Positions 2,781-18,449 of a DNA stretch of 64,000 nt are shown here, in pieces. The notes beneath the pieces were generated by a model. That model saw only the letters and a program-made list of their open reading frames with translations, did no database searches and was not told where the DNA came from. The stretch is from Candidatus Anderseniibacteriota bacterium (lineage in GTDB: Bacteria; Patescibacteriota; Andersenbacteria; UBA10190), in assembly GCA_016197005.1 (NCBI GenBank), contig JACPWO010000002.1, forward strand, positions 8,483-72,482. Reading direction: 5' to 3'. Both the position numbers and the translations under genes were made by a program. Each line of letters opens with the position of its first letter. Within the stretch, counting starts at the first letter, position 1.

Positions 2781-4550
2781 ATGAGTCACCACAATAAAAG
2801 AAAATTAAAGTTCCAAATCCACGGCATGCACTGTGTCGCGTGTGAGGTACTCATTGAACGGCAATTCAAGAAAGTACCAGGAGTAGAGGACGTGAGCGTC
2901 AGCCATGTTACCGGCAAAGCTCAGCTCACCTCCTCAAGCCAGCCTGACCTTACTGCTCTGCAAGCGGCAGTTCAAGACCATGGGTACACTGTAAGTTCCT
3001 GGGCTGACCGCCACCGTGTCGCCCAGCAGCTGCGCCATAAAAATACCAAACGAGACTATTTGGAACTGGGCGCGGTGCTGCTCATCCTGATGGCGGCCTA
3101 CCTCATCCTCAAACAATTTGATCTCGTACCTAAGCTGGGCATTACCGACAATATGAGCTATGGCTTCATCTTTGCCATTGGCCTGGTGGCGGCTATGTCT
3201 ACCTGTCTGGCTGTTACCGGCGGCCTCCTGGTAGCTTTGGCGGCCAAGTACAACGAGATGCACCCCCATCTGACCGGAGTACAGAAGTTAAAGCCACACT
3301 TGTACTTCAACGCTGGCAGAATCGTTGGCTACACGGCCTTTGGTGCAGCTATCGGTGCGCTGGGCTCGGCACTTACCGTCTCTCCTCGGGTAAATGGCCT
3401 CATCACGATTATGGCCAGCGTGGTGATGATCATTCTTGGTTTCCAACTCTTGCACCTCTTCCCAGGGCTCAAGCGGTTCCAACCCAAGATGCCGAAGTTC
3501 CTGGCCCACAAAATCCATGACGCGACGAGTAACGCTCATCACCCGACCGCGCCGTTCTTCTTAGGCGCGGCCACGTTCTTCCTGCCCTGCGGCTTTACGC
3601 AAGCCCTCCAGTTGTATGTATTAAGTCAGGGAGATTGGAAAGTGGGTGCACTCACCATGCTTGTCTTCTCATTGGGCACGCTGCCTGGACTCATGTCACT
3701 CAGTGCGTTGTCGAGCTTTGTCAAAGGCGCCTTCCAACGATACTTTCTTAAGTTTGCGGGAGCGGTGGTTATCATGCTCGGTCTCTTCAGTATCAACAAT
3801 GGCTTTACGCTCACCGGCATTAACATCAGCTGGGCTGCCTTCTCTCGGAGCAATACTACTGCGACTACTCAAACGGCCAATGACCCCAATGTGAAGCTCG
3901 TTAACGGCAAGCAGGTCGTGGCGATGAAAGTAGCGGGCTTAAGCTACACACCCAATAAGTTTACGGTGCAACAGGGCCTTCCGGTGGAGTGGCAGATTGA
4001 CGGTACGCAAGCGCAAGGCTGTGCGCAGGTCATTACCGTGCCGAGTCTCGGCATTACGAAGTACTTAGCAACGACTGGCATTACCACTATCAGCTTTACG
4101 CCGCAGCAGACCGGCACCATCCCGTTTAGCTGCACGATGGGTATGACCACACGGGGGTCAGCCTTTACGGTGGTGGCGAATGCAGCGGGTGCTGTAGGGT
4201 CAGCAGGACAACAGCAACCAACTCAACCACAGCCAATCGAGACTACCTCAGGTTGTAATCCAGAAATCTCCAACTGTGTCCTCGCTCAAAAAGTCTCACT
4301 CGAAGTCTCAAGTGAGCGCGGTGTGTACCCCCGGTCACTTGCGGTTAAAAAAGGTATACCCGTTGACCTCACCATAGATTCCAAAGTGCCGCTTGGCGGC
4401 TGTATGTCTGTCTGGGTCATACCCAAGTACAACGTCACCCTGCCCATGAAGGTGGGGATTAATAAGGCTACCTTTACGCCTACTGAGGCAGGGACGATTG
4501 CCATGACCTGCAGTATGGGCGGAAAGATGGCGGAGTTTACTGTTAGTTAA
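2781..4550 (+). CDS. Heavy-metal-binding fusion protein: an N-terminal HMA domain, a polytopic permease (DsbD_2/TauE-like) and two C-terminal cupredoxin-like domains.
   Basis: HMA motif GMHCVAC. Multiple TM helices with conserved Cys in the TMs (MSTCLAV, FLPCGFTQ). Two repeated C-terminal modules with GC...C.MG motifs (GCAQV...FSCTMGM and GGCMSV...MTCSMGG). Confidence 0.7.
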   Translation: MSHHNKRKLKFQIHGMHCVACEVLIERQFKKVPGVEDVSVSHVTGKAQLTSSSQPDLTALQAAVQDHGYTVSSWADRHRVAQQLRHKNTKRDYLELGAVLLILMAAYLILKQFDLVPKLGITDNMSYGFIFAIGLVAAMSTCLAVTGGLLVALAAKYNEMHPHLTGVQKLKPHLYFNAGRIVGYTAFGAAIGALGSALTVSPRVNGLITIMASVVMIILGFQLLHLFPGLKRFQPKMPKFLAHKIHDATSNAHHPTAPFFLGAATFFLPCGFTQALQLYVLSQGDWKVGALTMLVFSLGTLPGLMSLSALSSFVKGAFQRYFLKFAGAVVIMLGLFSINNGFTLTGINISWAAFSRSNTTATTQTANDPNVKLVNGKQVVAMKVAGLSYTPNKFTVQQGLPVEWQIDGTQAQGCAQVITVPSLGITKYLATTGITTISFTPQQTGTIPFSCTMGMTTRGSAFTVVANAAGAVGSAGQQQPTQPQPIETTSGCNPEISNCVLAQKVSLEVSSERGVYPRSLAVKKGIPVDLTIDSKVPLGGCMSVWVIPKYNVTLPMKVGINKATFTPTEAGTIAMTCSMGGKMAEFTVS

Positions 4551-4559
4551 CCACACTCT

Positions 4560-4799
4560 ATGAAAACACTCGATATGTTAAAAATGTGTCTCAACTGGAA
4601 AGTGCTTGCTAGCATCATTGCGGTGATTGTCATCACGTATATCTTCTTCCCCAAAATTGCCGCGGCCGCTCCGTTCCTGCTGGTGTTAGTCTGTCCGCTC
4701 TCAATGGTGCTCATGATGCGCGGAATGCAGCATGGTGATAAGCACGACATGCCCAGCAAAGACACGACAAAAAACCTTACTCATAACCATGACGTATGA
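4560..4799 (+). CDS. Small membrane protein with a His-rich C-terminal tail (DUF2933-like); metal-associated.
   Basis: One TM helix, then MRGMQHGDKHDM...HNHD. Positioned between the HMA fusion gene and copZ. Confidence 0.4.
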   Translation: MKTLDMLKMCLNWKVLASIIAVIVITYIFFPKIAAAAPFLLVLVCPLSMVLMMRGMQHGDKHDMPSKDTTKNLTHNHDV

Positions 4800-5020
4800 A
4801 AACCACTCTCACGATCAAAGGCACGCATTGTGCCTCGTGTAAAGCACTGATTGAAGACGTAGCCAAGGAAAATTCCTGCGTGACTGATATTGCGGTCGAT
4901 TTCAACACCGGGAAAACACTCATTGAGCATAAAGACTGCCTTGATTGGCAGGCCCTCAAACAAGAAGTCGAAAGCCTGGGCAAATATCACGTTGAGCTAG
5001 CTGGAAAGGAGACAGTATGA
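4796..5020 (+). CDS. copZ: Copper chaperone CopZ (single HMA domain).
   Basis: GTHCASC MxCxxC-type motif in a 74-aa protein with the ferredoxin-like HMA layout. Confidence 0.8.
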   Translation: MKTTLTIKGTHCASCKALIEDVAKENSCVTDIAVDFNTGKTLIEHKDCLDWQALKQEVESLGKYHVELAGKETV

Positions 5021-5919
5021 CGAAACAATCCAAGAACTATCTTATCTGGGGGATTATCATCGTGGCTCTTATCGCCGGTTTTGTCTGGTTCAAGCAAAAA
5101 GGAAGTTCTACTTCAGCCACCATTCTCAATCCTGTCAGTGCCATCACCCATGGTCATGGCTTAGCTGTGGATGTAAGTGATTCCACTAGGCTTCACATCG
5201 CCACCCATCATGGCCTGCTTGTCTTAGTGAATGACAAAGACTTGTACCGCGTCGGCACCAGCCAAGACGACTACATGGGCTTCTCACCTCACCCCACTGA
5301 TCCCAAGATAGTATTCAGCAGCGGCCATCCCCGCACCGGCGGCAATATCGGGGTGCAGCGGTCAGATGATAGCGGATTTACGTGGAAGAGCATATCCAGA
5401 GGCGCAAATGGGCCAGTAGACTTTCATGCTATGGCAATTAGTGCGGCCAATCCCAACCTGATGTATGGCTGGTACCAAGGAGCGCTGCAGCGTAGCCAAG
5501 ATGGCGGCACTACCTGGGAGATTGCGACACGCAATATACCGCAGATCATTCAATTGGTCGCTAATCCGATAGACGAAAATGTAGTTTACGCAGCGACTCC
5601 CCAAGGACTACTGGTCAGTCGCAACAAAGGAGCGGAGTGGAGCAATGCGTCTGACGACCTACAAGGCGGCGCCGTGGTGGCGCTTGCCATCGATCCGCAA
5701 GACCCAGCTAAGATGTTCTCGTTTTCCCAGCAGTCTGGATTAGCGAAGAGTGCTGACGGTGGGACGACCTGGGAGAAAATCAACGAGACGTTCGGCGGAG
5801 AGACTGTGCTCTTTATTGCCATAAGTAAACAGCAACCAGATACCGTGTACACCCTCACCGAGAGCAACACCATCTACAAGAGCACTGATGGAGGGAATGG
5901 GTGGAATAAGATTCGTTAA
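5017..5919 (+). CDS. BNR (Asp-box) repeat protein, membrane-anchored; Ycf48/sialidase-like beta-propeller.
   Basis: N-terminal TM helix. Five S-x-D-x-G-x-T-W-type repeats: [40 protein letters not shown]. Confidence 0.6.
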
Positions 5920-5923
5920 GACT

Positions 5924-8101
5924 ATGACTACCACAACATTTACCATCGTTGGCATGCACTGCGCCTCGTGCGTAGCGCGCAACGAGCGCAGTCTCAAAAA
6001 AGTGAAGGGCGTCAAAGATGCGACGGTGAACTTCGCCAGCCACAGCGCTACCGTTGAGTACGATGAATCACTAGTTACTGATAAGACCTTATTCGAAGCC
6101 ATCATCAAGAATGGCTATAAAGTGCTCAGCGAAGAATCAGTGAAGAATCACAAGGAAGCACTCAAGCACGAATTAGCGATTGCCAAACAACGAGCATATG
6201 TGGCGTTAGCACTCTCTTTGCCCATCGCGCTACTCGCCATGTTTGGTGTTGATCTGCCGTGGGAAGTTGCTGGCTACAATGCCAGCAACTGGTTGCAAGC
6301 GGTGGTGAGCACAATTGTCATTCTCGTCCTCGGCTGGGAATTTCATGTAGGTATGTGGAAGCAAGCAAAGTTGAAGACAGCCAACATGGATACTTTAATC
6401 TCACTTGGTACCCTGGCAGCACTTGGCTACAGCCTGTGGGCAATGGCGGTTGGTGAAGAGCATCTCTACTTCGAAACCGGTGCCGTGATTGCTGCCCTTA
6501 TCCTCCTCGGCCGTTACTTTGAAGCGAGGAGTCGTGGGCAGGCCAGTGAAGCAGTTGAAAAACTCTTGCAGCTAGGAGCCAAGACAGCTCGTTTGCTCAA
6601 AGATGGGCAAGAGCAGGAAGTACCTATTGAGCAGGTAAAAGTTAATGACATTCTATTAGTAAAGCCAGGCGAGAAAATCCCGGTGGATGGAAAAGTAAGC
6701 AACGGCTCATCAAGCGTTGATGAATCCATGCTCACCGGTGAAAGTATGCCTGTCGGGAAAAAAGAAGGTGACGACGTGTTCGGGGCAACCATCAACCTCA
6801 ACGGTGCAATCCAAGTACAAGCCACGAAGGTTGGTCAAGATACGGTGCTGGCCCAGATTGTGAAGATGGTGGCGGAAGCGCAGGTCAAAAAAGCGCCTAT
6901 TCAAAAACTGGCCGACAAAATTTCTGGTGTGTTTGTCCCGATTGTTTTAGGGATTGCTCTGGTTACGGCAGTGGGGTGGTATCTCAAGACGGGTGACCTC
7001 GCTCAGAGCCTTATTCCCGCCGTAGCGGTCTTAGTCATTGCCTGCCCCTGTTCCTTAGGCCTCGCCACACCTACGGCGATTATGGTCGGTACTGGTTTAG
7101 GCGCCAAACGAGGCATCCTTATCAAGAATGGTGAAGCCTTAGAGAAAGGCAAAAAGATTGATGTGGTCGTGTTTGATAAAACCGGGACATTAACTGAAGG
7201 CAAACCGCGAGTCACCGATACTGTGCCGCTGGGTAAAGATATTTCAACCGAGCAACTCTTAACACTGAGTGCTAGTTTGGAGAAACTGTCTGAGCACCCA
7301 CTGGCGCAAGCCGTGGTGAACGCAGCCAAAGAGAAAAAACTTTCACTGCAGCCGGTGCACGGATTTGAAAGTGTGGCCGGGAAAGGCGTCAGGGGGCAGA
7401 TTGAGGGGAGCACCATTCTCATTGGCAGTCTGCGTTTGATGCGAGAATCAGGCATTGCCACTGAAGCACACCAGCAGCAGCTGCAAGAACTGGAAGAGCA
7501 AGCCAAGACCGTTGTTGCTGTCGCACACAATAATGTGGTCGTTGGCCTACTTGCGATTGCCGATGCTCTCAAAGCCGATGCAAAACAAGCCGTTGAGCAG
7601 CTGCGGCAATCGGGCATTGAGACCGTCATGATTACGGGCGATAACAGCCGCACGGCTGAGGCCATTGCTCGTCAGGTAGGTATTGAGAAGGTTTCTGCCG
7701 AGGTGCTGCCAGGTGATAAAGCAGACAAGGTTAAGGAACTACAACACGCAGGCAATAAAGTTGCCTTTGTCGGTGATGGTATTAACGATGCCCCGGCATT
7801 GGTTCAAGCTGACCTTGGCATTGCCATTGGTACGGGCACAGATATTGCTATTGAGGCCGGTAATATTGTGTTAGTTAAAGGCAGTCCATTAAAAGTAGTG
7901 GAAGCACTGAAGCTATCTCGCCTGACCTTCAAAACCATTATGCAAAACATGTTTTGGGCATTTGGCTACAACGTGGCCGCCATTCCGCTGGCTGCACTTG
8001 GTTTGCTGAATCCGATGATTGCAGCCGGAGCGATGGCCTTCTCAAGTGTTAGTGTGGTTGGTAATAGCTTACGTATTAAGCGCCAAGCCGGAAAAGTATG
8101 A
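5924..8101 (+). CDS. copA: Copper-translocating P1B-type ATPase CopA.
   Basis: HMA motif GMHCASC. Motifs CPC ([12 protein letters not shown]), DKTGTLT, MITGDN and [10 protein letters not shown]. Start placed at the internal Met (MTTTTF) just after the upstream gene's stop. Confidence 0.9.
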
Positions 8102-8134
8102 CCAGCCTTTATTTTTTATCCTCTCCCAACATCT

Positions 8135-8878
8135 ATGGATCAAAATCCGAGCAATAAGTCTTCAGTATTCGGTGTGCCCGCAGCGATTGTCATCGCCGGT
8201 GGCCTCATTGCCGCCGCTCTGTATTTTGGCAATAGCAAAGCCTCCGTTCAGCAAGTAGCCTCCGGACAACAAGCAGCAAACCCTCAAGCAGCCCAACCAG
8301 CCGCGCAACCGCCAGAACCCACCATCGGCGCTATTCGCCCTATCACTGACCAAGACCACATTCGCGGGGCGAAGAACGCTAGGGTAACTATTCTCGAATA
8401 TTCTGATCTTGAGTGTCCCTTCTGTAAAAAATATCATCCTACGGTACAACAAGCCTTAAGCGAATATCCTAACGATGTGCGTTGGGTATATCGGCACTCA
8501 CCGTTAAGTCAGCTCCATAGCCAAGCTGCTAAGGAAGCTGAAGCGACCGAATGTGCCGGTGAGCAAGGCAAGTTCTGGGAAATGACAGATAAAATCTTTG
8601 AGGTTACGCCTTCAAACAACGGCCTTAACCTGGCTGACTTACCCAAACTAGCGCAACAAGTGGGCGTAGCTAATATCCCGCAATTTCAATCCTGCTTAGA
8701 TAGTGGTAAGTACACGAAGTATGTGGCTGACGACACAGCCGATGCTCAAGTCGCTGGACTGCAAGGTACACCCTATAGCGTCATTATTGCTGCCAATGGT
8801 CAGAAGTTCCCGCTCTCTGGCGCACAACCCTACAGCGCTTTGAAGCAATTGATAGATCAGGCGTTGAAGAGTAAATAA
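8135..8878 (+). CDS. DsbA-family thiol:disulfide oxidoreductase, membrane-anchored.
   Basis: N-terminal TM helix, a Pro/Gln-rich linker, and a thioredoxin CPFC active site (LECPFCKKYH). Confidence 0.75.
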   Translation: MDQNPSNKSSVFGVPAAIVIAGGLIAAALYFGNSKASVQQVASGQQAANPQAAQPAAQPPEPTIGAIRPITDQDHIRGAKNARVTILEYSDLECPFCKKYHPTVQQALSEYPNDVRWVYRHSPLSQLHSQAAKEAEATECAGEQGKFWEMTDKIFEVTPSNNGLNLADLPKLAQQVGVANIPQFQSCLDSGKYTKYVADDTADAQVAGLQGTPYSVIIAANGQKFPLSGAQPYSALKQLIDQALKSK

Positions 8879-11896: not shown

Positions 11897-12187
11897 GTGA
11901 ACGAACTTAAAAAAATTGGTGACCTACCTCAAGCGCAGCAGAAAATTCTATTTACTGTTCTGCGGATTGGTAAGCCTGCGTTTCTAACATCTGAAGTTCA
12001 TAAAAAAGTTAGTGATGAAATGGCTGGACGCTCTGTGGGCGCCGTGTTGGGGTCGCTGTACCGAAATGGTTATCTAGATAAGGTGCAGGGAGGACGAGAT
12101 AAGCGCTGGGTGTTATCAAAACAAGCAGAAGCGGCACGTGATGATATTAAGCTACAGATTTCTAATGTTAAGATTTACTGGTCCTGA
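11897..12187 (+). CDS. Small protein that looks like a winged-helix DNA-binding protein; first gene of the helicase operon.
   Basis: 96 aa with an apparent GTG start. The LPQAQQKILFTVLRIG...LYRNGYLDKV...KRWVLS layout resembles a wHTH. An 11-nt gap separates it from the helicase gene. Confidence 0.35.
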   Translation: MNELKKIGDLPQAQQKILFTVLRIGKPAFLTSEVHKKVSDEMAGRSVGAVLGSLYRNGYLDKVQGGRDKRWVLSKQAEAARDDIKLQISNVKIYWS

Positions 12188-12198
12188 TATGTACAAAT

Positions 12199-15100
12199 AT
12201 GTCGGAGAAGGAAAATAAGGCCAAAGAATCAAACTCAACAACCCCTTTCATAAAAGAGGTTGGTAAATACTTTATGGAATTTCTGGAGACAGACTTTCAT
12301 AAAAGAAGGCTGCCTCGTAGGAGTATTAAACTACATAACGATAAGGGATTACTTACTGGTCTCAATCTCAGTAAGTATCCAAGTTTTTATAAAGTTGCAT
12401 ATAAGCTTGTTAACAATGCCTTCACTGACGCCGAGTTAACAATCCAAAAGGGCGTATACAAGGCAGACATACCGGAGTCGCTGCTTGATCTCATCAAGAA
12501 GCAAATAAATAAAGTTACCAATACCGAAGTTACCGCTCTCATTAAGGAGCTTGATGATTCAATCCAACAATCGTCAGTCAAATATAAAGACGACTATTTG
12601 CAGGCATTTAATTCAGTCATGGAGAATGCTGGCTCGGTATTTGAAAAACACATCATCCTCAATTTAGTAAAGAGTATAGAAAAGCCACTTGAAAATAATA
12701 AACTCGCCGATGAGAATGCCATTTTCCAGATAGAGGATGAGCTGACGAACATCTTTACAAAGAAGGTTGAAGATGCCGTAGCCGAATCTCTCAAGATTCT
12801 CTTAAGCGGCGATAAACCAAATACAAAGAAACTTTTAAAGGATGTGCTGGATATAGAGGACATCCGTGCCAGTTTGGCCAAGTTCTTTGAAATGTTTAAG
12901 GTGTCGGATCTTTTCAATGATCTACATGAGCTTTACCAGAATTTTAAAATAGAAGATAAGCAGGAATTTTATTTCTACTTTTACGATATTAGTTACCAAA
13001 AAACTAAGTATCCCATCTTCTACATCCCATTCTCTATTGAAAGACAAAGCGATACGTTTCTAATTACCTTCGATTCGCAAATTTATATCAATAAGAAAGC
13101 ATTGGCATACATCGTTCAGGAATATAACCTTGAGCGAGGCAAAAAGGGAGCACTGCAAACAATAGCCGATAGAATTATTTACCTCGCCGATCATGAGGAT
13201 GACTTGCCGTTGGTGTTACAAGACACACTGACAGAGATTTCAAACTTCTTTGACTTAGACACAAAACCTCAAGTGGCAAAACCAGACATACAATTGAGCA
13301 AGAGCCTGTATGTTACGGCGAGCACCAATGCATATATTGCCCTTTTCGATAAGTCAGACGAGGCACTATTAAATGATTATGAGGACATTCTTAATGCCGC
13401 CGCCGACAGTGTTTTAATGAAAGGCTTTCAGGTTTTGATAAATGATTTTATACACGAAAATCCTGAGTCTGTGGCAAAGCCCATCAGGGATGATTGGGAT
13501 AGTAAGGGAGTTGATGAGCGATTGGTATATAAAAGTCCCATCCCTCTCAACAGCGAGCAACAACAGATACTTTCTGCTATTCATAATGACAGGTGCAAAT
13601 ATGTGCTCGTTGAAGGTCCTCCGGGAACGGGGAAAAGCCACACAATCACTGCAATTGTTTTTGACACGATTCTGGAGAACAAATCGGTTCTCGTGCTATC
13701 GGATAAGAAGGAAGCGCTTGATGTAGTTGAGAAAAATATTGTGAACACTCTGAATAAGGTTCGCGTTGACGAGAAATTTCAGAATCCCATTTTGCGGTTA
13801 GGAAAAACTGGTAATACCTACAGTCAACTTCTTACTCAGTCATCTATTGAAGCTATTACACAGCAGTTCAGAGCCGTCAGAAGTAAATATCCTAATCTCA
13901 ATGAGCAGATAGATGTTGCGATAGAAGCATTGAGGAATGGTGTGAAGGGTCAGACTGATGCGTATCATCATATCTCGCTTGCCGATGTTAATGAACTGTC
14001 TTCATTGAAGAAGCACTTCGATGAAGCAGGTTTTTGTATCGACGTTGATGAAGCTATAAGCAACCCCGATTCTGTAGAGGAGCTTACAAAAATACGCTCT
14101 ATCTTCTTGAAGCTTAAAAATAGGATAAAAGAAAACAGAGACGTATCGTTTAACTTTGATTACACCAAAGAGCTGGGTGATGAGAATTCCAAGAACCTTG
14201 AAGAGATTATTTCTGCGTTGGAAGATATAGCGCGACTGGCAGAGGAAAGCCCGCGCCTCTTTAGTGAAAGTAAATTATCGTCTCTTTACGATCACGTTCA
14301 GAAGAACAAAGTAAAAGTAGAGAAATTGCTTGGTTATCTTGCAAGTGTGTCTGAGCTCACGAATTTATTCACTAAAAAGAAGCAGTATTTAGACTTACTT
14401 CACGTCGACAAGAATGAGCTTGATAGTTTAGCCACTATTAAAACAGTAGCGCAGCACGCTTTGTGGCTAGAAGGCATCGTCGAAAAGGTGAAATATTTTG
14501 CGAAAGATTCTCTTAGTCGTTTGAGTTCTTTTGATAAGTCGCATAGTGATGACGTTGTTGCTCTGAAGAATTATATTGACTCAGCAAAAAAGTTGCGGAA
14601 CGGATTGCTTGGCTACTTGGGGAAGAAAAGCAAGGTCGAGCAATTGAATCAGAGCTTCCGCAAGAATTTCCCTCTTTCTAAATTCGATGACCCGCATAAA
14701 CATCTAAAAGAATTAGAGGAAATTCTAGGTATCTATGAATACGTACAAGAACTTTGCGACGATAAATATCATCCGCAGGATATTGATCTGATACACTTAG
14801 TCACTTCGATTCTAAAGGATGGTGAACTGTATTTTACATCCGATCAGCTAACTGATATTCGCAATTCGTTTGATGTTACAAACAAAGTTGATGTAATCGC
14901 TCAAGAGATTTCTAGTTCTAAGTTTTCTGTTATGACGCTTCACGACCTGAATGATATTGCGGTCATTTCTGAAATTGGAGCGCTCTATGAAGAGTTGAGC
15001 GACCTTATGACTAAGGAAAAAGAGCTAATTGAATCGAATGTTGATCTAAAGAAGATCAAGAACATCAATATGCTTTTTCAAAAAGACAATCTTAAAGAAA

Positions 15101-16977
15101 TGATTGGAGAGATCAGTGTCTGCAAAGAATACGTAGATACACTCATTGAGGTTAATGATGATGTCGTTTATTTAAAGGAATCTTCTGACAATCACAAAAA
15201 TAGTTTTGCAAAGGCGGGCATCGACAATAGCTCTTTCTCTTCGTTATACGAAAACAAATTAACTGAGATATCGGATCTTGAATTTGAAAAGCTCGTCAGA
15301 TTTATCACTCTGCATCAAGAGCTGACAGAAAAATTTGATGATATTAAGGATCTCAGCTACGGAGAGCGAATGAAGCAAGTCGAGAATATTGTAACGATGC
15401 AAATGACATATCTGATGGATGAGAGATTCGTTGACTTCACCAATGACTTTAAAGCTGACGCAAAAGCATTAAAGCAGGTAATCAAGGAAAAGAAGAAGTT
15501 TCCTAAAGATCAATTCTCAAAACTCAAGAATGCATTCCCGTGTATTTTAGCCGGTATCCGTGACTATGCAGAATATATTCCCTTGGAGCCAGAGATATTT
15601 GACCTTGTCATCATCGATGAGGCATCTCAGGTAAGTATTGCGCAAGCATTCCCAGCTCTATTGAGAGCAAAGAAGGTTGTTGTGCTTGGGGATAGCCTGC
15701 AATTTAGTAACGTGAAGTCTGCTTTGGCGCGAGGCGACATTAACAAGCAGTATTTGGGTAGTCTGCGGGAAGTTTTCTTAAAAACAGTTGCTACCGAGGA
15801 AGAGACAGACAAGGTAGCCCGCCTTGAAAAATTCAATATCAAAGTTTCAATTCTCGATTTCTTCGGCTTCATTAATAATTACCAGACTCGTTTAGTTAAG
15901 CATTTCCGTGGATACCGGGAGCTTATTTCGTATTCAAATAAGTTCTTTTACAAAAACAGCCTACAGGTTATGAAAGTTCGAGGTTTGCCGATCAGTTCGG
16001 TCATTAAATTCTCTCAAGTAGACCATGACGGTAAGGAAGAAATGACTAAAAACACAAACGTGCCTGAGATAGAGTTCATTATCTCCGAGCTTAAAGCTTT
16101 AAAGGATCAAGACAAAAAATGCACCGTCGGTATCATTACCCCTCATACAAATCAGCAACGTCTACTTTATGAGAAGATTAGTGATCTGCCTGAATCTGAT
16201 TATTTCTTCGATGCGTTGAAGCTTAAGGTGATGACCTTCGACACATGTCAGGGTGAAGAAATGGATATTATTTATTATTCCATGGTGGCTACCGAAACGG
16301 AAGATAAATTAAACTATGTGTTCATTAGTGATCTCAATAATATCGATCTAGACGATGACGAAGGAAAAATTAAGGCACAACGTCTTAACGTCGGTTTAAG
16401 CCGAGCGAAGGAATGTATGCACTTTGTACTTAGCAAGCCAATTGATCAGTACGCGGGTACTGCAAAAGAATTTCTGCAGCACTACTCAAATGCTCTGCTT
16501 GAGGCTCAAAAAGAACCTGATAGTACTAGCGTAGATAAGAATTCCGAGATGGAGCCGCTGGTTCTGGAATGGATCAAACAGACGAAGTTTTGGGATGAGA
16601 ACAAAAATAATGCTGAAATATTGCCTCAGTTTGAACTTGGTAAATATCTCAAGCAGTTGGATCAGAGCTATAATCATCCTAACTATCGAGTGGATTTCCT
16701 TCTCGTATATCGCGACGAAGAAGGAAGTGAGCATAAAATCATTATTGAATATGATGGCTTCCTAGAACATTTTGGTGATGTGATGCATGTAGTCAATGAG
16801 TCAAATTACGAAGAATACTATTCATCAGAGGATGTATATCGACAGCACGTTCTAGAAGGTTATGGTTACCGATTCATTAGGATCAATAAGTTTAATCTTG
16901 GCGAGAACCCCATCGCCACGCTTGATTCTCGAATTCAGGAAATAGTAAAAAAAAACTTTACAATCACGAAATCGTAA
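12199..16977 (+). CDS. Giant 1592-aa SF1B (Upf1/DNA2-like) helicase with a C-terminal Vsr/DUF559-like PD-(D/E)xK nuclease domain. The architecture resembles the DUF4011-helicase-REase family.
   Basis: Walker A VLVEGPPGTGKSHT. Motif Ia VLVLSDKKEALD. Motif II LVIIDEASQV plus GDSLQF. Motif V TFDTCQGEEMDII. Motif VI LNVGLSRAKE. C-terminal YRVDFLLVY...IIIEYDGFLEHF...GYRFIRINKF matches the DUF559/Vsr-like fold. Confidence 0.85.
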   Translation: MSEKENKAKESNSTTPFIKEVGKYFMEFLETDFHKRRLPRRSIKLHNDKGLLTGLNLSKYPSFYKVAYKLVNNAFTDAELTIQKGVYKADIPESLLDLIKKQINKVTNTEVTALIKELDDSIQQSSVKYKDDYLQAFNSVMENAGSVFEKHIILNLVKSIEKPLENNKLADENAIFQIEDELTNIFTKKVEDAVAESLKILLSGDKPNTKKLLKDVLDIEDIRASLAKFFEMFKVSDLFNDLHELYQNFKIEDKQEFYFYFYDISYQKTKYPIFYIPFSIERQSDTFLITFDSQIYINKKALAYIVQEYNLERGKKGALQTIADRIIYLADHEDDLPLVLQDTLTEISNFFDLDTKPQVAKPDIQLSKSLYVTASTNAYIALFDKSDEALLNDYEDILNAAADSVLMKGFQVLINDFIHENPESVAKPIRDDWDSKGVDERLVYKSPIPLNSEQQQILSAIHNDRCKYVLVEGPPGTGKSHTITAIVFDTILENKSVLVLSDKKEALDVVEKNIVNTLNKVRVDEKFQNPILRLGKTGNTYSQLLTQSSIEAITQQFRAVRSKYPNLNEQIDVAIEALRNGVKGQTDAYHHISLADVNELSSLKKHFDEAGFCIDVDEAISNPDSVEELTKIRSIFLKLKNRIKENRDVSFNFDYTKELGDENSKNLEEIISALEDIARLAEESPRLFSESKLSSLYDHVQKNKVKVEKLLGYLASVSELTNLFTKKKQYLDLLHVDKNELDSLATIKTVAQHALWLEGIVEKVKYFAKDSLSRLSSFDKSHSDDVVALKNYIDSAKKLRNGLLGYLGKKSKVEQLNQSFRKNFPLSKFDDPHKHLKELEEILGIYEYVQELCDDKYHPQDIDLIHLVTSILKDGELYFTSDQLTDIRNSFDVTNKVDVIAQEISSSKFSVMTLHDLNDIAVISEIGALYEELSDLMTKEKELIESNVDLKKIKNINMLFQKDNLKEMIGEISVCKEYVDTLIEVNDDVVYLKESSDNHKNSFAKAGIDNSSFSSLYENKLTEISDLEFEKLVRFITLHQELTEKFDDIKDLSYGERMKQVENIVTMQMTYLMDERFVDFTNDFKADAKALKQVIKEKKKFPKDQFSKLKNAFPCILAGIRDYAEYIPLEPEIFDLVIIDEASQVSIAQAFPALLRAKKVVVLGDSLQFSNVKSALARGDINKQYLGSLREVFLKTVATEEETDKVARLEKFNIKVSILDFFGFINNYQTRLVKHFRGYRELISYSNKFFYKNSLQVMKVRGLPISSVIKFSQVDHDGKEEMTKNTNVPEIEFIISELKALKDQDKKCTVGIITPHTNQQRLLYEKISDLPESDYFFDALKLKVMTFDTCQGEEMDIIYYSMVATETEDKLNYVFISDLNNIDLDDDEGKIKAQRLNVGLSRAKECMHFVLSKPIDQYAGTAKEFLQHYSNALLEAQKEPDSTSVDKNSEMEPLVLEWIKQTKFWDENKNNAEILPQFELGKYLKQLDQSYNHPNYRVDFLLVYRDEEGSEHKIIIEYDGFLEHFGDVMHVVNESNYEEYYSSEDVYRQHVLEGYGYRFIRINKFNLGENPIATLDSRIQEIVKKNFTITKS

Positions 16978-17045
16978 GTGACGTTCAAGATTTAATTCGT
17001 GATCTTCGTAGTGGTAATGCAAAAGTATGCCCCAAATGTGGTGAA

Positions 17046-17681
17046 GTGAAGCCGCTATCTGATTTTCAGGATAGATCATTGGCTACAGGGGTTGGTAGGT
17101 TTTGTCGTGAGTGCAAAGTAGGATTGAGCGCTCATTACTACATTTCACCAAGCACTGAGAGACAGCAGAGGAATATTTATAGTCTCTCAAAGGGCGATGT
17201 GAATAAGCTGCATAGTTTTTCTGATACCCCGGAAAAATATGCGAGTGGAGGCAGCAAGGCACGAGAGAAAGTTCAATACCTAGAGAGTATTAAACATAAG
17301 TTTGATGGGTTACAGGTTGCCAAATACATAGCGGCTCGTAAAAAGTATGACGAAGCACTTGTGGCAAAAGCAGAGACCGAACTGAATCAGGATGTAGATT
17401 ATAGCGCCATCTTAAATGAGGCATTTAATAATCGCAGATCAGTCAAGATTCGCTATAAAGGATCATGGCGCACTGTTGATCCCTACTCTCTTAACAATAC
17501 TTATGTGGTTGCTTACTGCCATCTCGCTCGTGATATCCGAACATTTAGAGTAGACAGAATACAAGGAGCGGATTTGTCCGATTCATTTAGCTTAAATAGC
17601 AACTTGCAGGAAATGGCACAAAGTAGATTGGCTGAAGCTCCTAGCTTTCGAGGCTATAAGCGTCGGCGGCGCAGGTATTAA
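17046..17681 (+). CDS. Zinc-ribbon plus WYL-domain protein, a putative ligand-sensing regulator. The frame is open from 16926 with no canonical start, so it may be fused to the helicase.
   Basis: WYL-like segment RRSVKIRYKGSWRTVDPYSLNNTYVVAYCHLARDIRTFRVDRI. Zn ribbon CPKCG-x17-CRECK. The ORF-track GTG start at 17046 falls between the two Cys pairs. Confidence 0.55.
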   Translation: MKPLSDFQDRSLATGVGRFCRECKVGLSAHYYISPSTERQQRNIYSLSKGDVNKLHSFSDTPEKYASGGSKAREKVQYLESIKHKFDGLQVAKYIAARKKYDEALVAKAETELNQDVDYSAILNEAFNNRRSVKIRYKGSWRTVDPYSLNNTYVVAYCHLARDIRTFRVDRIQGADLSDSFSLNSNLQEMAQSRLAEAPSFRGYKRRRRRY

Positions 17682-17696
17682 ACTTAAGATTAATAT

Positions 17697-18449
17697 ATGT
17701 CCGAATACTACAATCCAAACCGTGGGCCGAAGTGGAATTACGGGGGAGATCAATGGAAGCTATCGCGCTCTAAGATCGACTTGTTTTTAGAATGCCCTCG
17801 TTGCTTCTACATCGATAACAAGCTTGGCGTAAAGCGGGTACCCGGCTTTCCTTTTGCGTTAAATAGCGCTGTGGATCATTTGCTGAAGCTGGAGTTTGAT
17901 ATTCATCGCGCCAATGGCGAGCAGCATCCACTACAAAAAGAATATGGCGTTGATGCCCGACCAGTGCCCCATGAAGAGCTTGATGAATGGAGACGCAACT
18001 TCGGTGGGGTACGTCATCTGCATGAAGCAACGGGCATGTTAGTCACCGGTGCCATTGACGATCTATGGATCAACAGTAATGACGAATACATTGTGGTGGA
18101 CTACAAGGCGACAGCAAAGGAGGAGGCCGTAACGAAACTAGATAAAGAATGGCAGGATGGGTATAAGCGGCAGATGGAAGTGTATCAGTGGTTGCTTCGT
18201 CAAAATGGCCTCAAAGTATCGGATACCGGCTATTTTGTATACTGCACCGGAAAGTTAGACGGCAAGTCATTTGATAAACGTATCGATTTTGATGTTCATC
18301 TAATCCCTTATGAAGGCAATAGTGAGTGGGTAGAAGGAACGTTGCTCAAGATAAAGGGATGTTTAGATGGTGACGCGATTCCGAAGACCGGCAAGAGTTG
18401 CGATTACTGTGCGTATTGGAATGCACGACGGTTGATTGAGTCGACATAA
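17697..18449 (+). CDS. Cas4-like/RecB-family PD-(D/E)xK nuclease with a predicted 4Fe-4S cluster.
   Basis: N-terminal LSRSKIDLFLECPRCFY. D...IVVDYK (D/ExK). QMEVYQWL (QxxxY). Three C-terminal Cys (C...CDYC). A 15-nt gap follows the WYL gene. Confidence 0.7.
   Translation: MSEYYNPNRGPKWNYGGDQWKLSRSKIDLFLECPRCFYIDNKLGVKRVPGFPFALNSAVDHLLKLEFDIHRANGEQHPLQKEYGVDARPVPHEELDEWRRNFGGVRHLHEATGMLVTGAIDDLWINSNDEYIVVDYKATAKEEAVTKLDKEWQDGYKRQMEVYQWLLRQNGLKVSDTGYFVYCTGKLDGKSFDKRIDFDVHLIPYEGNSEWVEGTLLKIKGCLDGDAIPKTGKSCDYCAYWNARRLIEST

What the first reader, a model, noticed from the sequence alone, without database searches (positions are those of the whole stretch)
11897..18449. Candidate novel defense operon: small wHTH protein, giant SF1B helicase with Vsr-like nuclease, Zn-ribbon/WYL sensor and Cas4-like Fe-S nuclease
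Four co-directional genes sit 11 nt, -52 nt (overlapping frames) and 15 nt apart. The central 1592-aa protein has all Upf1/DNA2-like SF1B helicase motifs (GPPGTGKS, DEASQ, GDxxQ, QGxE, LNVGLSRAK) and a C-terminal DUF559/Vsr-like PD-(D/E)xK domain (IIIEYDGFLEHF...GYRFIRI). It is followed by a WYL-domain protein (SWRTVDPYSL...AYCHLARDIRTFRVDRI) and a Cas4-like nuclease (IVVDYK, QxxxY, three Cys plus an N-terminal Cys). WYL domains are established ligand-sensing regulators of defense systems such as BREX, CBASS and type VI CRISPR. A helicase combined with a nuclease is the core of many anti-phage systems, including Nhi, Hachiman, Mokosh, AddAB-like and Gabija. I cannot match this combination, an SF1B helicase with a Vsr-like REase plus a separate Cas4-like nuclease plus WYL, to a named system, so it may be an undescribed system or a new variant of the DUF4011-helicase family.
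Basis: partly seen in the sequence, partly recalled or inferred. Interest (0 to 1): 0.9.

Follow-up and report, generated by a model that had tools for sequence, protein, structure and literature searches.

The report
Frameshift-extended helicase-nuclease cassette in CPR bacteria
A giant helicase-nuclease of a tiny uncultured bacterium appears to be made in two forms, because a conserved run of nine A's lets some products slip into another reading frame and gain a DNA-sensing WYL tail; the cassette looks like an undescribed anti-invader system, but its function is untested.

Summary
The four ORFs, their spacing and their domains are real. The window comes from a Candidatus Andersenbacteria (CPR) genome. 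The "WYL gene" is not an independent gene. It has no start codon before its conserved Zn-ribbon. It lies in the -1 frame of the helicase and begins at an A9 run (16947-16955), the only A/T run of 8 or more in 64 kb. In 21 distinct related loci the run is A9-A11. Eighteen keep the same -1 arrangement and three are natural in-frame fusions with the predicted junction (IVKKK-LYNH). Codon-position variability switches frame exactly at the run, and dN/dS of the extension is about 0.1. The helicase is therefore probably made as a 1592-aa form and a roughly 1827-aa form carrying a Zn-ribbon and a WYL domain. The route would be transcriptional slippage and/or -1 ribosomal frameshifting. A small HTH gene upstream (10 of 19 loci examined) and a Cas4-family nuclease downstream (16 of 21 loci examined) recur but are not orthologous. 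The window's Cas4-like gene belongs to a very abundant CPR family that also ends PLD-SNF2/methylase cassettes. No named defence family is matched at its cut-off. A defence role is plausible but unproven.

The parts
11897..12187 (+). Small 96-aa ORF, a probable winged-helix regulator, ending 11 nt before the helicase start.
   Evidence: ORF. The only hit is weak: Penicillinase_R (BlaI-type wHTH), E=0.011. The same position holds HTH_17/MerR-type or XRE-type small genes in 9 other loci, with gaps of -8 to +8 nt. It has no ortholog next to other helicases.
12199..16977 (+). Helicase-nuclease, 0-frame product of 1592 aa (short isoform). It comprises a conserved N-terminal domain (aa 1-450), an SF1B helicase core with a large insertion (aa ~446-1412) and a Vsr/DUF559-like nuclease (aa ~1440-1580).
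   Evidence: Pfam AAA_11/AAA_12. PDB best matches are IGHMBP2 and Upf1. PADLOC hits are PDC-S37 3.5e-38, MkoA/MkoC and Hhe. NCBIfam ProA scores 140 bits against a cut-off of 1500, and Hhe 78.5 against 2000. MTES_1575/DUF559 hits are sub-threshold in 13/13 and 11/13 members. The AF2 model of the N-domain is poor, pLDDT 57.
16947..16955 (+). A9 slippery run (GT-AAAAAAAAA-C): the proposed site of transcriptional slippage and/or -1 ribosomal frameshifting (A_AAA_AAA / A_AAA_AAC in the helicase frame).
   Evidence: It is the only A/T homopolymer of 8 or more in the 64-kb window. Runs of A9 (17), A10 (5) or A11 (1) sit at the same place in 23 loci, 21 of them distinct. Every Lys codon in the run is AAA, although usage in these genes is 62% AAA. 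That gives P of about 6e-14 if loci are treated as independent.
16956..17681 (+). -1-frame C-terminal extension of 241 codons plus stop. It contains a helix, a CxxC...CxxC Zn-ribbon (nt ~17019-17120), a helical linker, a WYL beta-barrel (nt ~17436-17585) and a basic tail. The predicted long isoform is about 1827 aa.
   Evidence: No canonical start precedes the conserved residues. Codon-position entropy switches to the -1 frame directly after the run. dN/dS is about 0.1. In-frame fusions occur in P0032, L015, L018 and L021. In the sister family the homologous Zn-ribbon is in frame. AF2 pLDDT is 79.6, and Foldseek matches the WYL domains of PafBC, CapW, BrxR and DriD.
17697..18449 (+). Cas4-like PD-(D/E)xK nuclease of 250 aa, starting 15 nt after the extension's stop.
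   Evidence: PDDEXK_1 2.6e-14 and Cas_Cas4 0.0026. PADLOC Cas4 3.3e-10. TIGR00372 scores 28.7 bits against a cut-off of 65. Invariant residues include C33, C36, C222, C235, C238 and the DYK motif. At least 8000 homologs exist, and the top 120 are 76-88% identical. Its genomic contexts vary.

Best explanation
The locus is a horizontally mobile cassette of CPR (Patescibacteria) bacteria. It has three parts: a small HTH regulator, a 1592-aa SF1B (Upf1-like) helicase fused to a Vsr/DUF559-like endonuclease, and a Cas4-family nuclease.

The 'WYL gene' is the -1-frame C-terminal extension of the helicase. It would be reached in one of two ways at the conserved A9-11 run. Either RNA polymerase adds one A, or the ribosome slips -1 at A_AAA_AAA. 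Either event reads IVKK-K-LYNHEIV... instead of IVKK-NFTITKS-stop. It appends a Zn-ribbon, a helical linker and a WYL domain. One gene would therefore give a short form (1592 aa, the default) and a long form (about 1827 aa).

Shown here by computation: the run, the frame relation, purifying selection on the extension, the absence of a start codon, and the natural in-frame fusions.

Inferred:
- The WYL and Zn-ribbon bind single-stranded DNA, as WYL domains do in DriD, CapW, PafBC and PIF1. They would recruit or activate the helicase-nuclease on unwound or damaged foreign DNA.
- The Vsr-like domain cuts DNA and the Cas4-family nuclease processes the ends.
- The slippage frequency sets the ratio of sensor-bearing to sensor-less subunits.
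- The biological role is most likely defence against phages or other mobile DNA.
For: Recoding:
- Eighteen of 21 distinct loci have the extension in the -1 frame, and three are in-frame fusions with the predicted junction.
- The -1 frame is closed by stops just upstream of the run. The first canonical start lies 18-612 nt downstream at variable positions and has no Shine-Dalgarno sequence.
- Mean entropy by codon position is 0.5/0.1/1.22 in the helicase frame upstream of the run. It is 0.6/0.47/1.25 in the -1 frame between the run and the helicase stop.
- dN/dS is about 0.1.
- Ninety-two annotated homologs have arbitrary N-terminal truncations, 143-285 aa long, and none covers the full ORF.
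- The run is identical in three independent assemblies.
- The run is the only long homopolymer in the window.
- The residues directly after the run model as a helix packed before the Zn-ribbon.
- Published work puts the threshold for transcriptional slippage at about 9 A's and describes the Thermus dnaX A9 precedent (PMC1088944, PMC3711429).

Defence or mobile context:
- The family is sporadic, with only 6 of 185,579 species genomes holding it.
- Helicases are 63-81% identical across CPR classes, yet flanks are unrelated.
- GC content dips to 0.39-0.41 over the cassette.
- Large serine recombinases appear in 9 or more loci. Neighbours include terminase, methylases, GmrSD, T5orf172, KAP NTPase and Mrr.
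- The slot upstream of the same Cas4-like gene family holds HTH + PLD-SNF2 helicase + Eco57I-type methylase cassettes in L039, L041, L046 and L048.
- The best HMM relatives are defence helicases: PDC-S37, ProA, Mokosh and Hhe.
- The WYL fold matches ssDNA-binding WYL domains.
Against: - There are no RNA or protein data, so recoding is inferred from comparative sequence only.
- No covariation supports a downstream frameshift-stimulating hairpin.
- All matches to defence families are far below their cut-offs and rest mainly on the generic SF1B core.
- The window itself has no recombinase and no obvious defence neighbours. It has heavy-metal, two-component and ABC-transporter genes instead.
- In several loci the downstream genes are DNA-repair genes, namely xseA/xseB and a UvrD-nuclease.
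- The Cas4-like gene is far more abundant than the helicase and also occurs alone among housekeeping genes.
- The function of the N-terminal 450 aa is unknown.
Confidence: 0.58

Rival explanations
1. Accessory DNA-repair or recombination module. An SF1B 5'-3' helicase plus a Cas4/RecB-type nuclease would act as a split Dna2/AddAB/RecBCD-like end-resection machine for the host chromosome. The WYL/Zn-ribbon tail would bind ssDNA at damage sites.
For: Downstream partners include the quasi-essential-type DUF2779 (Cas4 + DEDD exonuclease), a UvrD-helicase-PDDEXK_1 protein, and xseA/xseB in L015, L017, L021 and L033 (PMC13621843). WYL domains of PafBC and DriD sense ssDNA in damage responses (PMC11804915). 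The WYL domain of PIF1, another SF1B helicase, is an accessory ssDNA-binding module (bioRxiv 10.1101/163188).
Against: The family is rare and patchy, lacks conserved synteny, and sits next to recombinases, terminases and methylases. The same slot is occupied by restriction-modification-like cassettes in other genomes. A Vsr-like endonuclease fused to the helicase is typical of defence helicase-nucleases rather than resection enzymes (established knowledge of Hhe-type proteins).
Confidence: 0.2
2. Replication or recombination module of an integrative, satellite-like mobile element. The element would comprise a large serine recombinase, terminase large and small subunits, methylases, an HTH_17 excisionase-like gene, the helicase and a Cas4-like exonuclease. 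The helicase would serve the element, not the host.
For: The block recombinase-terL-terS-methylase(s), with divergently oriented HTH-helicase-nuclease genes, recurs in L003, L006, L007, L033 and L038. L037 carries only the recombinase next to the helicase. The terL assignment is strong, phrog_38 at 3e-83. The Cas4-like family occurs on 7 IMG/VR contigs.
Against: The helicase plus extension occurs without that block in the window, L013, L015, L017 and L035. Neither the helicase nor the extension is found in IMG/VR or in 50,697 phage records. No element boundaries could be defined, and the repeats found look like paralogous gene starts.
Confidence: 0.13
3. DNA-level phase variation (contingency locus). 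The A-run would change length during replication and switch populations between helicase-only and helicase-WYL genotypes, with no programmed RNA-level or ribosome-level event.
For: A9-11 tracts are hypermutable. Both out-of-frame and in-frame genotypes exist, even among close relatives: L012 versus L015/L018 has dS of about 0.6. Poly-A phase variation is known (PMC3711429).
Against: Run-length differences (A9, A10, A11) are base substitutions that keep the -1 relation, not indels. Eighteen of 21 consensus sequences are out of frame, yet the extension is under strong purifying selection. The in-frame variants arose through GTT-A9, not through a simple change in run length. Three assemblies of the window population agree on A9. 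Within-population heterogeneity could not be examined.
Confidence: 0.12
4. The WYL ORF is a separate protein. It would be translated from an internal or non-canonical start, or by termination-reinitiation at the helicase stop, and the A-run would be incidental.
For: Gene callers annotate separate WYL proteins of 143-285 aa. The GTG at 17046 gives a 211-aa ORF.
Against: Called starts are inconsistent and fall on conserved Leu/Val codons inside the Zn-ribbon region, without a Shine-Dalgarno sequence. The codons between the run and the helicase stop already evolve in the -1 frame. Relatives encode the same segment in frame with the helicase. The constraint on the A-run is at nucleotide level.
Confidence: 0.06
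5. Assembly error or pseudogene: a homopolymer miscall or a decaying gene split in two.
For: Homopolymers are error-prone. In L006 the helicase is broken into three ORFs.
Against: Twenty-one distinct loci from many studies and assemblers share the arrangement. The extension is intact and has dN/dS of about 0.1.
Confidence: 0.02

Closest known systems
Hhe (DUF4011 helicase-Vsr endonuclease single-gene anti-phage protein; NCBIfam NF042953, PADLOC PDLC02194)
   Same: A very large single polypeptide with an N-terminal domain, an AAA_11/AAA_12 SF1B helicase and a C-terminal Vsr/DUF559-type nuclease. Hits are 8.2e-19 (PADLOC) and 2.1e-22 (NCBIfam).
   Different: It scores 78.5 bits against a cut-off of 2000. 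No DUF4011 domain is detected. Hhe has no Zn-ribbon/WYL extension and no recoding (from memory for Hhe).
ProA (NCBIfam NF058533 'anti-phage protein ProA') and PADLOC candidate PDC-S37
   Same: These are the best-scoring HMM relatives. ProA scores 4.7e-41 over aa 446-1408, and PDC-S37 scores 3.5e-38 over aa 596-1412, including part of the helicase insertion.
   Different: It scores 140 bits against a ProA cut-off of 1500. The N-terminal domain, the nuclease and the extension are not covered. I found no paper describing ProA in the library.
The ~1525-aa 'topoisomerase C4 zinc-finger' helicase family of CPR, DPANN and other uncultured lineages (e.g. P0083, P0114; uncharacterised)
   Same: It is homologous over the full length: about 50% identity in the N-domain, about 60% in the helicase core and Vsr-like domain, and the same linker and first Zn-ribbon. 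Neighbours are the same kind: HTH_17, PDDEXK_1 or DUF2779, and serine recombinase.
   Different: Its C-terminus is in frame, ends in Zn_ribbon_Top1 fingers instead of WYL, and has no A-run.
dnaX of Thermus thermophilus (A9) and Chlorobi (A10): two isoforms by transcriptional slippage. dnaX of E. coli: -1 ribosomal frameshift at A_AAA_AAG
   Same: A conserved A9-10 run late in a long gene gives two products that differ at the C-terminus. Some orthologs have the long form in the 0 frame and others have it in a shifted frame (PMC1088944, PMC3711429).
   Different: Here the default product is the short form in most genomes, the gene is a helicase-nuclease, and no experimental evidence exists.
WYL-containing PIF1 helicase of Thermotoga elfii, and the WYL regulators BrxR, CapW, PafBC and DriD
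   Same: A WYL beta-barrel is attached to, or controls, nucleic-acid enzymes and defence systems. These WYL domains bind ssDNA (bioRxiv 10.1101/163188; PMC11804915). PIF1 is also an SF1B helicase.
   Different: There is no HTH and no recognised WCX domain in the extension. It is C-terminal, preceded by a Zn-ribbon, and attached by recoding.
Dna2 / AddAB / RecBCD end-processing enzymes
   Same: They combine an SF1B helicase with a Cas4/RecB-type iron-sulfur PD-(D/E)xK nuclease. In three loci the partner is a UvrD-type helicase-nuclease.
   Different: Here the nuclease is a separate and interchangeable gene. The helicase carries its own Vsr-like nuclease. The distribution is sporadic and associated with mobile elements.

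Membership tests
Hhe | Score at or above the NCBIfam NF042953 cut-off (2000 bits) | tested here: not met
   78.5 bits, with only aa 1111-1410 matched.
Hhe | N-terminal DUF4011 domain | tested here: not met
   No DUF4011 hit at E<=0.01 in Pfam.
Hhe | SF1B AAA_11/AAA_12 helicase plus a C-terminal Vsr/DUF559-type nuclease | tested here: inconclusive
   The helicase core is clearly present. The nuclease is supported only by consistent sub-threshold hits to MTES_1575 (13/13) and DUF559 (11/13).
ProA (NF058533) | Score at or above the cut-off (1500 bits) | tested here: not met
   140.3 bits.
PDC-S37 (PADLOC candidate) | Full-length match to the PDLC05009 profile | tested here: inconclusive
   E=3.5e-38, 129 bits, covering aa 596-1412 against profile positions 399-1196 of 1550. 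No curated cut-off is available.
Mokosh (MkoA+MkoB, or MkoC) | Helicase together with a PLD-family nuclease | tested here: not met
   Only the helicase region matches MkoA/MkoC. No PLD domain is found in the four ORFs.
WYL transcription regulators (BrxR/CapW/PafBC type) | N-terminal (w)HTH DNA-binding domain fused to WYL | tested here: not met
   Pfam finds only WYL. The AF2 model shows helix, Zn-ribbon, helical linker and WYL, with no HTH.
WYL transcription regulators (BrxR/CapW/PafBC type) | WYL domain fold | tested here: met
   PF13280 at 2.6e-13. The PDB profile search hits PafBC. Foldseek hits PafBC, CapW, BrxR and DriD.
CRISPR-associated Cas4 | TIGR00372 at or above the cut-off, and a cas1/cas2/CRISPR context | tested here: not met
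   28.7 bits against a cut-off of 65. There is no CRISPR-like repeat array in the window, and no cas genes among the called neighbours.
Cas4-family PD-(D/E)xK nucleases (broad sense) | PD-(D/E)xK core (D...DYK, QxxxY) with conserved cysteines at the N- and C-termini | tested here: met
   PDDEXK_1 at 2.6e-14. Invariant residues are D135-Y136-K137, Q159/Y163, and C33, C36, C222, C235, C238.
Programmed transcriptional slippage (Thermus dnaX type) | Homopolymer of about 9 or more A/T, conserved at nucleotide level across orthologs | tested here: met
   A9-A11 in 23 of 23 loci. All Lys codons in the run are AAA, against 62% usage in these genes.
Programmed transcriptional slippage (Thermus dnaX type) | Downstream ORF lacks its own start, is under purifying selection, and is in frame in some orthologs | tested here: met
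Programmed transcriptional slippage (Thermus dnaX type) | mRNA population with variable run length | not testable with these tools
   No transcript data are available.
-1 programmed ribosomal frameshifting (E. coli dnaX / IS type) | X_XXY_YYZ slippery heptamer in the 0 frame | tested here: met
   gtA_AAA_AAA_AAC in the helicase frame.
-1 programmed ribosomal frameshifting (E. coli dnaX / IS type) | Conserved stimulatory RNA structure 5-9 nt downstream, and/or an upstream SD-like element | tested here: inconclusive
   An 8-bp hairpin (CACGAA/UUCGUG region) can form in most sequences. Covariation is no better than shuffles, and RNAalifold does not predict it. A GGAG motif upstream is present in only about half of the loci. 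There is no Rfam match.

The most novel reading that the evidence does not exclude
The A-run is a programmed isoform switch, analogous to dnaX tau/gamma, inside a prokaryotic immune effector. It would fix the ratio of sensor-bearing (Zn-ribbon/WYL, ssDNA-binding) to sensor-less helicase-nuclease subunits in one complex. This would be the first recoding-controlled defence system. It would also be one cargo of a CPR-wide cassette site. That site is led by a small HTH gene and closed by a highly conserved 249-aa Cas4-like nuclease that serves several unrelated helicase/methylase systems.
Probability: 0.3. Interest if true: 0.82.

Novelty: new variant of a known kind. Interest (0 to 1): 0.62.

Why it matters
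If the recoding is real, it adds a conserved cellular case of programmed slippage outside IS elements, phages, dnaX and prfB. It would occur in the little-studied CPR bacteria. It would also show a new way to attach a ligand-sensing WYL domain to an effector, as an optional tail made from the same gene.

There is a practical consequence. About 90 database entries annotated as short 'WYL domain-containing proteins' would be mis-called fragments of a helicase isoform.

The cassette architecture may help to find defence islands in CPR genomes, where known systems are scarce. That architecture is HTH, then a variable helicase-nuclease or methylase, then a Cas4-family nuclease, often beside a serine recombinase.

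The hypothesis is directly testable with reporters, metatranscriptomes and one diagnostic peptide.

Tried and rejected
- Near-identical DNA in plasmids: none found.
- Helicase in phage records: only two weak partial hits.
- The extension in IMG/VR viral contigs: none found.
- Orthologs of the window's wHTH, Cas4-like and flanking ORFs beside other helicases: none, apart from a distant nuclease-domain hit in L015/L021.
- Serine recombinase, DUF2779 and several other partner genes from related loci (the terminase was not queried): no match in the window.
- Downstream frameshift hairpin: RNAalifold does not predict it, and covariation equals the shuffles.
- Rfam: nothing in 10-20 kb.
- Promoter and terminator scans: no more sites than in shuffled sequence.
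- Direct repeats as element boundaries in L033, L037 and L038: the one exact 22-nt pair, in L037, looks like paralogous gene starts.
- AF2 model of the N-terminal 450 aa: too poor (pLDDT 57) for a fold search.
- PDB profile search with the Vsr-like domain: no significant hit.
- Literature on ProA, on PDC-S37/Hhe mechanism and on recoding in CPR: nothing relevant found.
It was replaced by A5.
- tRNA genes as integration targets: none in the window.

Full report
**1. Observation**

The + strand carries ORFs at 11897-12187 (96 aa), 12199-16977 (1592 aa) and 17697-18449 (250 aa). A fourth frame is open from 16926 to 17681. The gaps of 11 nt and 15 nt are as stated.

- Pfam finds the SF1B helicase core (AAA_11 at 9.6e-16, AAA_12 at 5.1e-18), a WYL domain (2.6e-13) and a PD-(D/E)xK Cas4-like nuclease (PDDEXK_1 at 2.6e-14).
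- The closest solved helicases are IGHMBP2 and Upf1.
- The Vsr/DUF559-like C-terminal domain is supported only below threshold. The support is consistent, though: 13 of 13 family members hit MTES_1575 and 11 of 13 hit DUF559.
- The 96-aa ORF has only a weak BlaI-type winged-helix hit, E=0.011.

The window is identical to a 492-kb contig of a Candidatus Andersenbacteria MAG, which belongs to the CPR (Patescibacteria).

**2. The 'WYL gene' is a recoded tail of the helicase**

Position 16926 is only the first codon after a stop. The first ATG/GTG/TTG in that frame is the GTG at 17046, which lies after the first CxxC of a conserved Zn-ribbon. The frame is -1 relative to the helicase.

Conserved residues begin at an A9 run at 16947-16955. 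In the helicase frame the sequence reads GTA AAA AAA AAC, giving V-K-K-N. In the -1 frame it reads AGT AAA AAA AAA CTT, giving S-K-K-K-L.

I collected 23 related loci, 21 of them distinct, from genome and metagenome collections. They show the following:
- Every locus has an A9 (17 loci), A10 (5) or A11 (1) run at this point.
- Eighteen distinct loci have the extension in the -1 frame. Stops close that frame a few codons upstream of the run. The helicase frame ends 1-8 variable codons after the run.
- Three loci (L015 = L021, and L018), together with protein P0032 (1821 aa), are natural in-frame fusions. They read ...IVKKKLYNHDVV..., which is exactly the product predicted for a -1 shift in the window.
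- In the -1 loci the first canonical start lies 18-612 nt after the run, at varying positions. It is usually a Leu or Val codon of a conserved motif, with no Shine-Dalgarno sequence.
- Gene callers have produced 92 'WYL proteins' of 143-285 aa. None covers the whole 241-codon frame.

Codon-position variability gives the sharpest test:

| Region | Frame used for codon positions | Mean entropy at positions 1 / 2 / 3 |
|---|---|---|
| Upstream of the run | helicase frame | 0.5 / 0.1 / 1.22 |
| Run to helicase stop | -1 frame | 0.6 / 0.47 / 1.25 |
| Further downstream | -1 frame | 0.48 / 0.41 / 1.32 |

The frame under selection therefore changes at the run, not at the helicase stop.

Further evidence points the same way:
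- dN/dS of the extension is about 0.1, including between pairs that are both in the -1 arrangement.
- The run is the only A/T homopolymer of 8 or more in the 64-kb window. In 276 kb of related loci there is only one other run of 9 or more.
- All Lys codons within the run are AAA in all 21 distinct loci, although AAA makes up 62% of Lys codons in these genes. This gives P of about 6e-14 if loci are treated as independent.
- The junction is identical in three independent assemblies of the window's population.
- An AF2 model of the extension (pLDDT 79.6) shows a helix formed by the residues directly after the run. This is followed by a Zn-ribbon, a disordered linker, a helical bundle, a WYL barrel, a helix and a basic tail.

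**3. Which slippage mechanism**

Two mechanisms would give the same ~1827-aa protein:
- RNA polymerase could insert one A on the run. Runs of about 9 A's are the recognised threshold. Thermus dnaX (A9) and Chlorobi dnaX (A10) are precedents (PMC1088944, PMC3711429).
- The ribosome could slip -1 on A_AAA_AAA.

I lean towards transcriptional slippage. The run is never shorter than 9, although a heptamer would suffice for the ribosome. The in-frame variants also keep A9, which would then yield the short form.

A hairpin 7-8 nt downstream can form in most sequences. However, its covariation is no better than in shuffles and RNAalifold does not predict it. An upstream GGAG motif occurs in about half of the loci. 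This step remains unresolved.

DNA-level phase variation is a real rival, with arguments against it as the main mechanism. The differences between A9, A10 and A11 are substitutions that preserve the -1 relation. Eighteen of 21 consensus sequences are out of frame while the tail stays under selection.

**4. The family**

The helicase has about 45 full-length relatives of 50-81% identity in several CPR classes. It is found in only 6 of 185,579 species-representative genomes.

A larger sister family of about 1525 aa is homologous over the whole length. It occurs in CPR, DPANN and other uncultured lineages. In that family the linker and first Zn-ribbon continue in frame. There is no A-run, and the protein ends in topoisomerase-type zinc fingers instead of WYL.

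The ancestral state is therefore a single polypeptide. The WYL clade acquired the A-run at the linker.

**5. Neighbours**

The window's own wHTH and Cas4-like genes have no orthologs beside other helicases, but their roles recur.

*Upstream.* A small HTH gene sits -8 to +11 nt before the helicase in 10 of 19 loci. It is HTH_17/MerR-type in five, XRE-type in four, and the window's own type in one.

*Downstream.* A co-directional Cas4-family nuclease gene follows within a few nucleotides in 16 of 21 loci. The types are:
- DUF2779, which is Cas4 plus a DEDD exonuclease (PMC13621843, PMC3985635);
- Cas4 plus RNase_H_2;
- a UvrD-helicase-PDDEXK_1 protein;
- the plain 250-aa type of the window.

Sister-family loci show the same pattern.

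*Wider context.*
- Large serine recombinases lie nearby in at least nine loci. They often come with terminase large and small subunits (phrog_38 at 3e-83) and N6/N4 methylases.
- Other neighbours include GmrSD, T5orf172, KAP NTPase, Mrr and AAA_15/21.
- In four loci xseA (plus xseB in one) follows the nuclease.

*The window's Cas4-like protein.* It belongs to a very abundant and conserved CPR family, with at least 8000 homologs. The top 120 are 76-88% identical. Its contexts vary:
- In L039, L041, L046 and L048 the slot upstream of this gene holds a PLD-SNF2 helicase plus an Eco57I-type methylase. In L041 that cassette is preceded by an XRE HTH gene and a serine recombinase.
- In L044 it follows a methylase, a ResIII helicase and a Bro-N gene.
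- In L042 it stands alone among housekeeping genes.
- The family is also present on 7 IMG/VR contigs.

The helicase is therefore one of several alternative cargos in a cassette site that ends with a Cas4-family nuclease.

**6. Function**

Three things are shown by computation: the architecture, the recoding signature, and the mobile, patchy distribution.

The rest is inferred. The cassette is most likely a defence or anti-mobile-element system, for these reasons:
- Its nearest HMM relatives are defence helicases: PDC-S37, ProA, Mokosh and Hhe.
- It shares a slot with restriction-modification-like cassettes.
- It carries two nucleases and a regulator.
- Its WYL domain matches ssDNA-binding WYL domains of CapW, BrxR, DriD and PafBC.

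I propose the following mechanism. The long isoform uses its Zn-ribbon and WYL domain to bind single-stranded DNA and to recruit or activate the helicase-nuclease. Slippage frequency sets the isoform ratio.

The rivals are a DNA-repair end-resection module, suggested by the xseAB, UvrD-nuclease and DUF2779 neighbours, and a replication or recombination module of a serine-recombinase/terminase element. Neither is excluded.

The window itself has heavy-metal, two-component and ABC-transporter neighbours and no recombinase. It does show a GC dip to 0.39-0.41 over the cassette.

**7. Comparison with known systems, and verdict**

No named family is met at its cut-off:
- Hhe scores 78.5 bits against 2000, and no DUF4011 domain is detected.
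- ProA scores 140 bits against 1500.
- The Mokosh models match only the helicase region, and no PLD domain is present.
- Cas4 TIGR00372 scores 28.7 bits against 65.
- There is no CRISPR array in the window.

The locus works most like an Hhe-type helicase-Vsr nuclease. Its expression most resembles the dnaX-type two-isoform arrangement. I found no description of this recoding or of this family in the literature searched.

I class it as a new variant of a known kind. The most interesting feature, the frameshift-attached WYL tail, was hidden in the '-52 nt overlap'.

Noticed in passing
window 17697-18449; L039, L041-L051: The 249-aa Cas4-like protein family is extremely abundant and conserved in CPR bacteria: at least 8000 homologs, with the top 120 at 76-88% identity across classes. 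It repeatedly sits as the last gene behind different helicase/methylase cassettes (PLD-SNF2 + Eco57I-type methylase). It also occurs alone and on 7 IMG/VR contigs. It may be an anchor gene of a cassette hotspot, or a shared accessory nuclease.
   Followed up: partly
L003 12540-15474; L033 1534-7750; L038 3292-8857; L007 34-2025: A recurrent block lies divergently next to the helicase in both subfamilies. It comprises a large serine recombinase, terminase large subunit (phrog_38 at 3e-83), terminase small subunit, one or two N6/N4 methylases and an unknown ~280-aa gene, with no capsid genes seen. It may be a satellite-like integrative element of CPR bacteria.
   Followed up: partly
window 2781-8878: A heavy-metal (copper-type) cluster lies upstream. 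It contains an HMA-DsbD_2-cupredoxin protein, small HMA proteins, a P-type ATPase with an HMA domain (5888/5924-8101) and a DsbA-like thioredoxin. GC content is higher here (0.48-0.51) than in the rest of the window.
   Followed up: no
window 12001-18000: GC content falls to 0.39-0.41 across the helicase cassette, against 0.44-0.51 in the flanks. This is consistent with horizontal acquisition.
   Followed up: no
L006 9851-14746: In the Candidatus Kaiserbacteria locus the helicase is split into three ORFs (706, 362 and 576 aa). The -1-frame WYL extension remains intact. This could be a pseudogene, further frameshifts, or assembly errors.
   Followed up: no
L037 853-874 and 14032-14053: An exact 22-nt direct repeat (AAGATAAAATAAATCTATGAAA) brackets the recombinase-to-helicase region of about 13.2 kb. 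It also overlaps the starts of small paralogous ORFs, so it is probably not an att site.
   Followed up: partly
L001 15545-16744; L005 15534-17048: In two loci the gene after the extension is a DUF2130 protein instead of a Cas4-family nuclease. From memory, DUF2130 may itself be a PD-(D/E)xK-type domain. This was not verified here.
   Followed up: no
L003 (CAZINS010000005.1): One helicase locus comes from a MAG labelled 'uncultured Gammaproteobacteria', although the gene is 76% identical to CPR versions. This suggests either mis-binning or transfer outside CPR.
   Followed up: no
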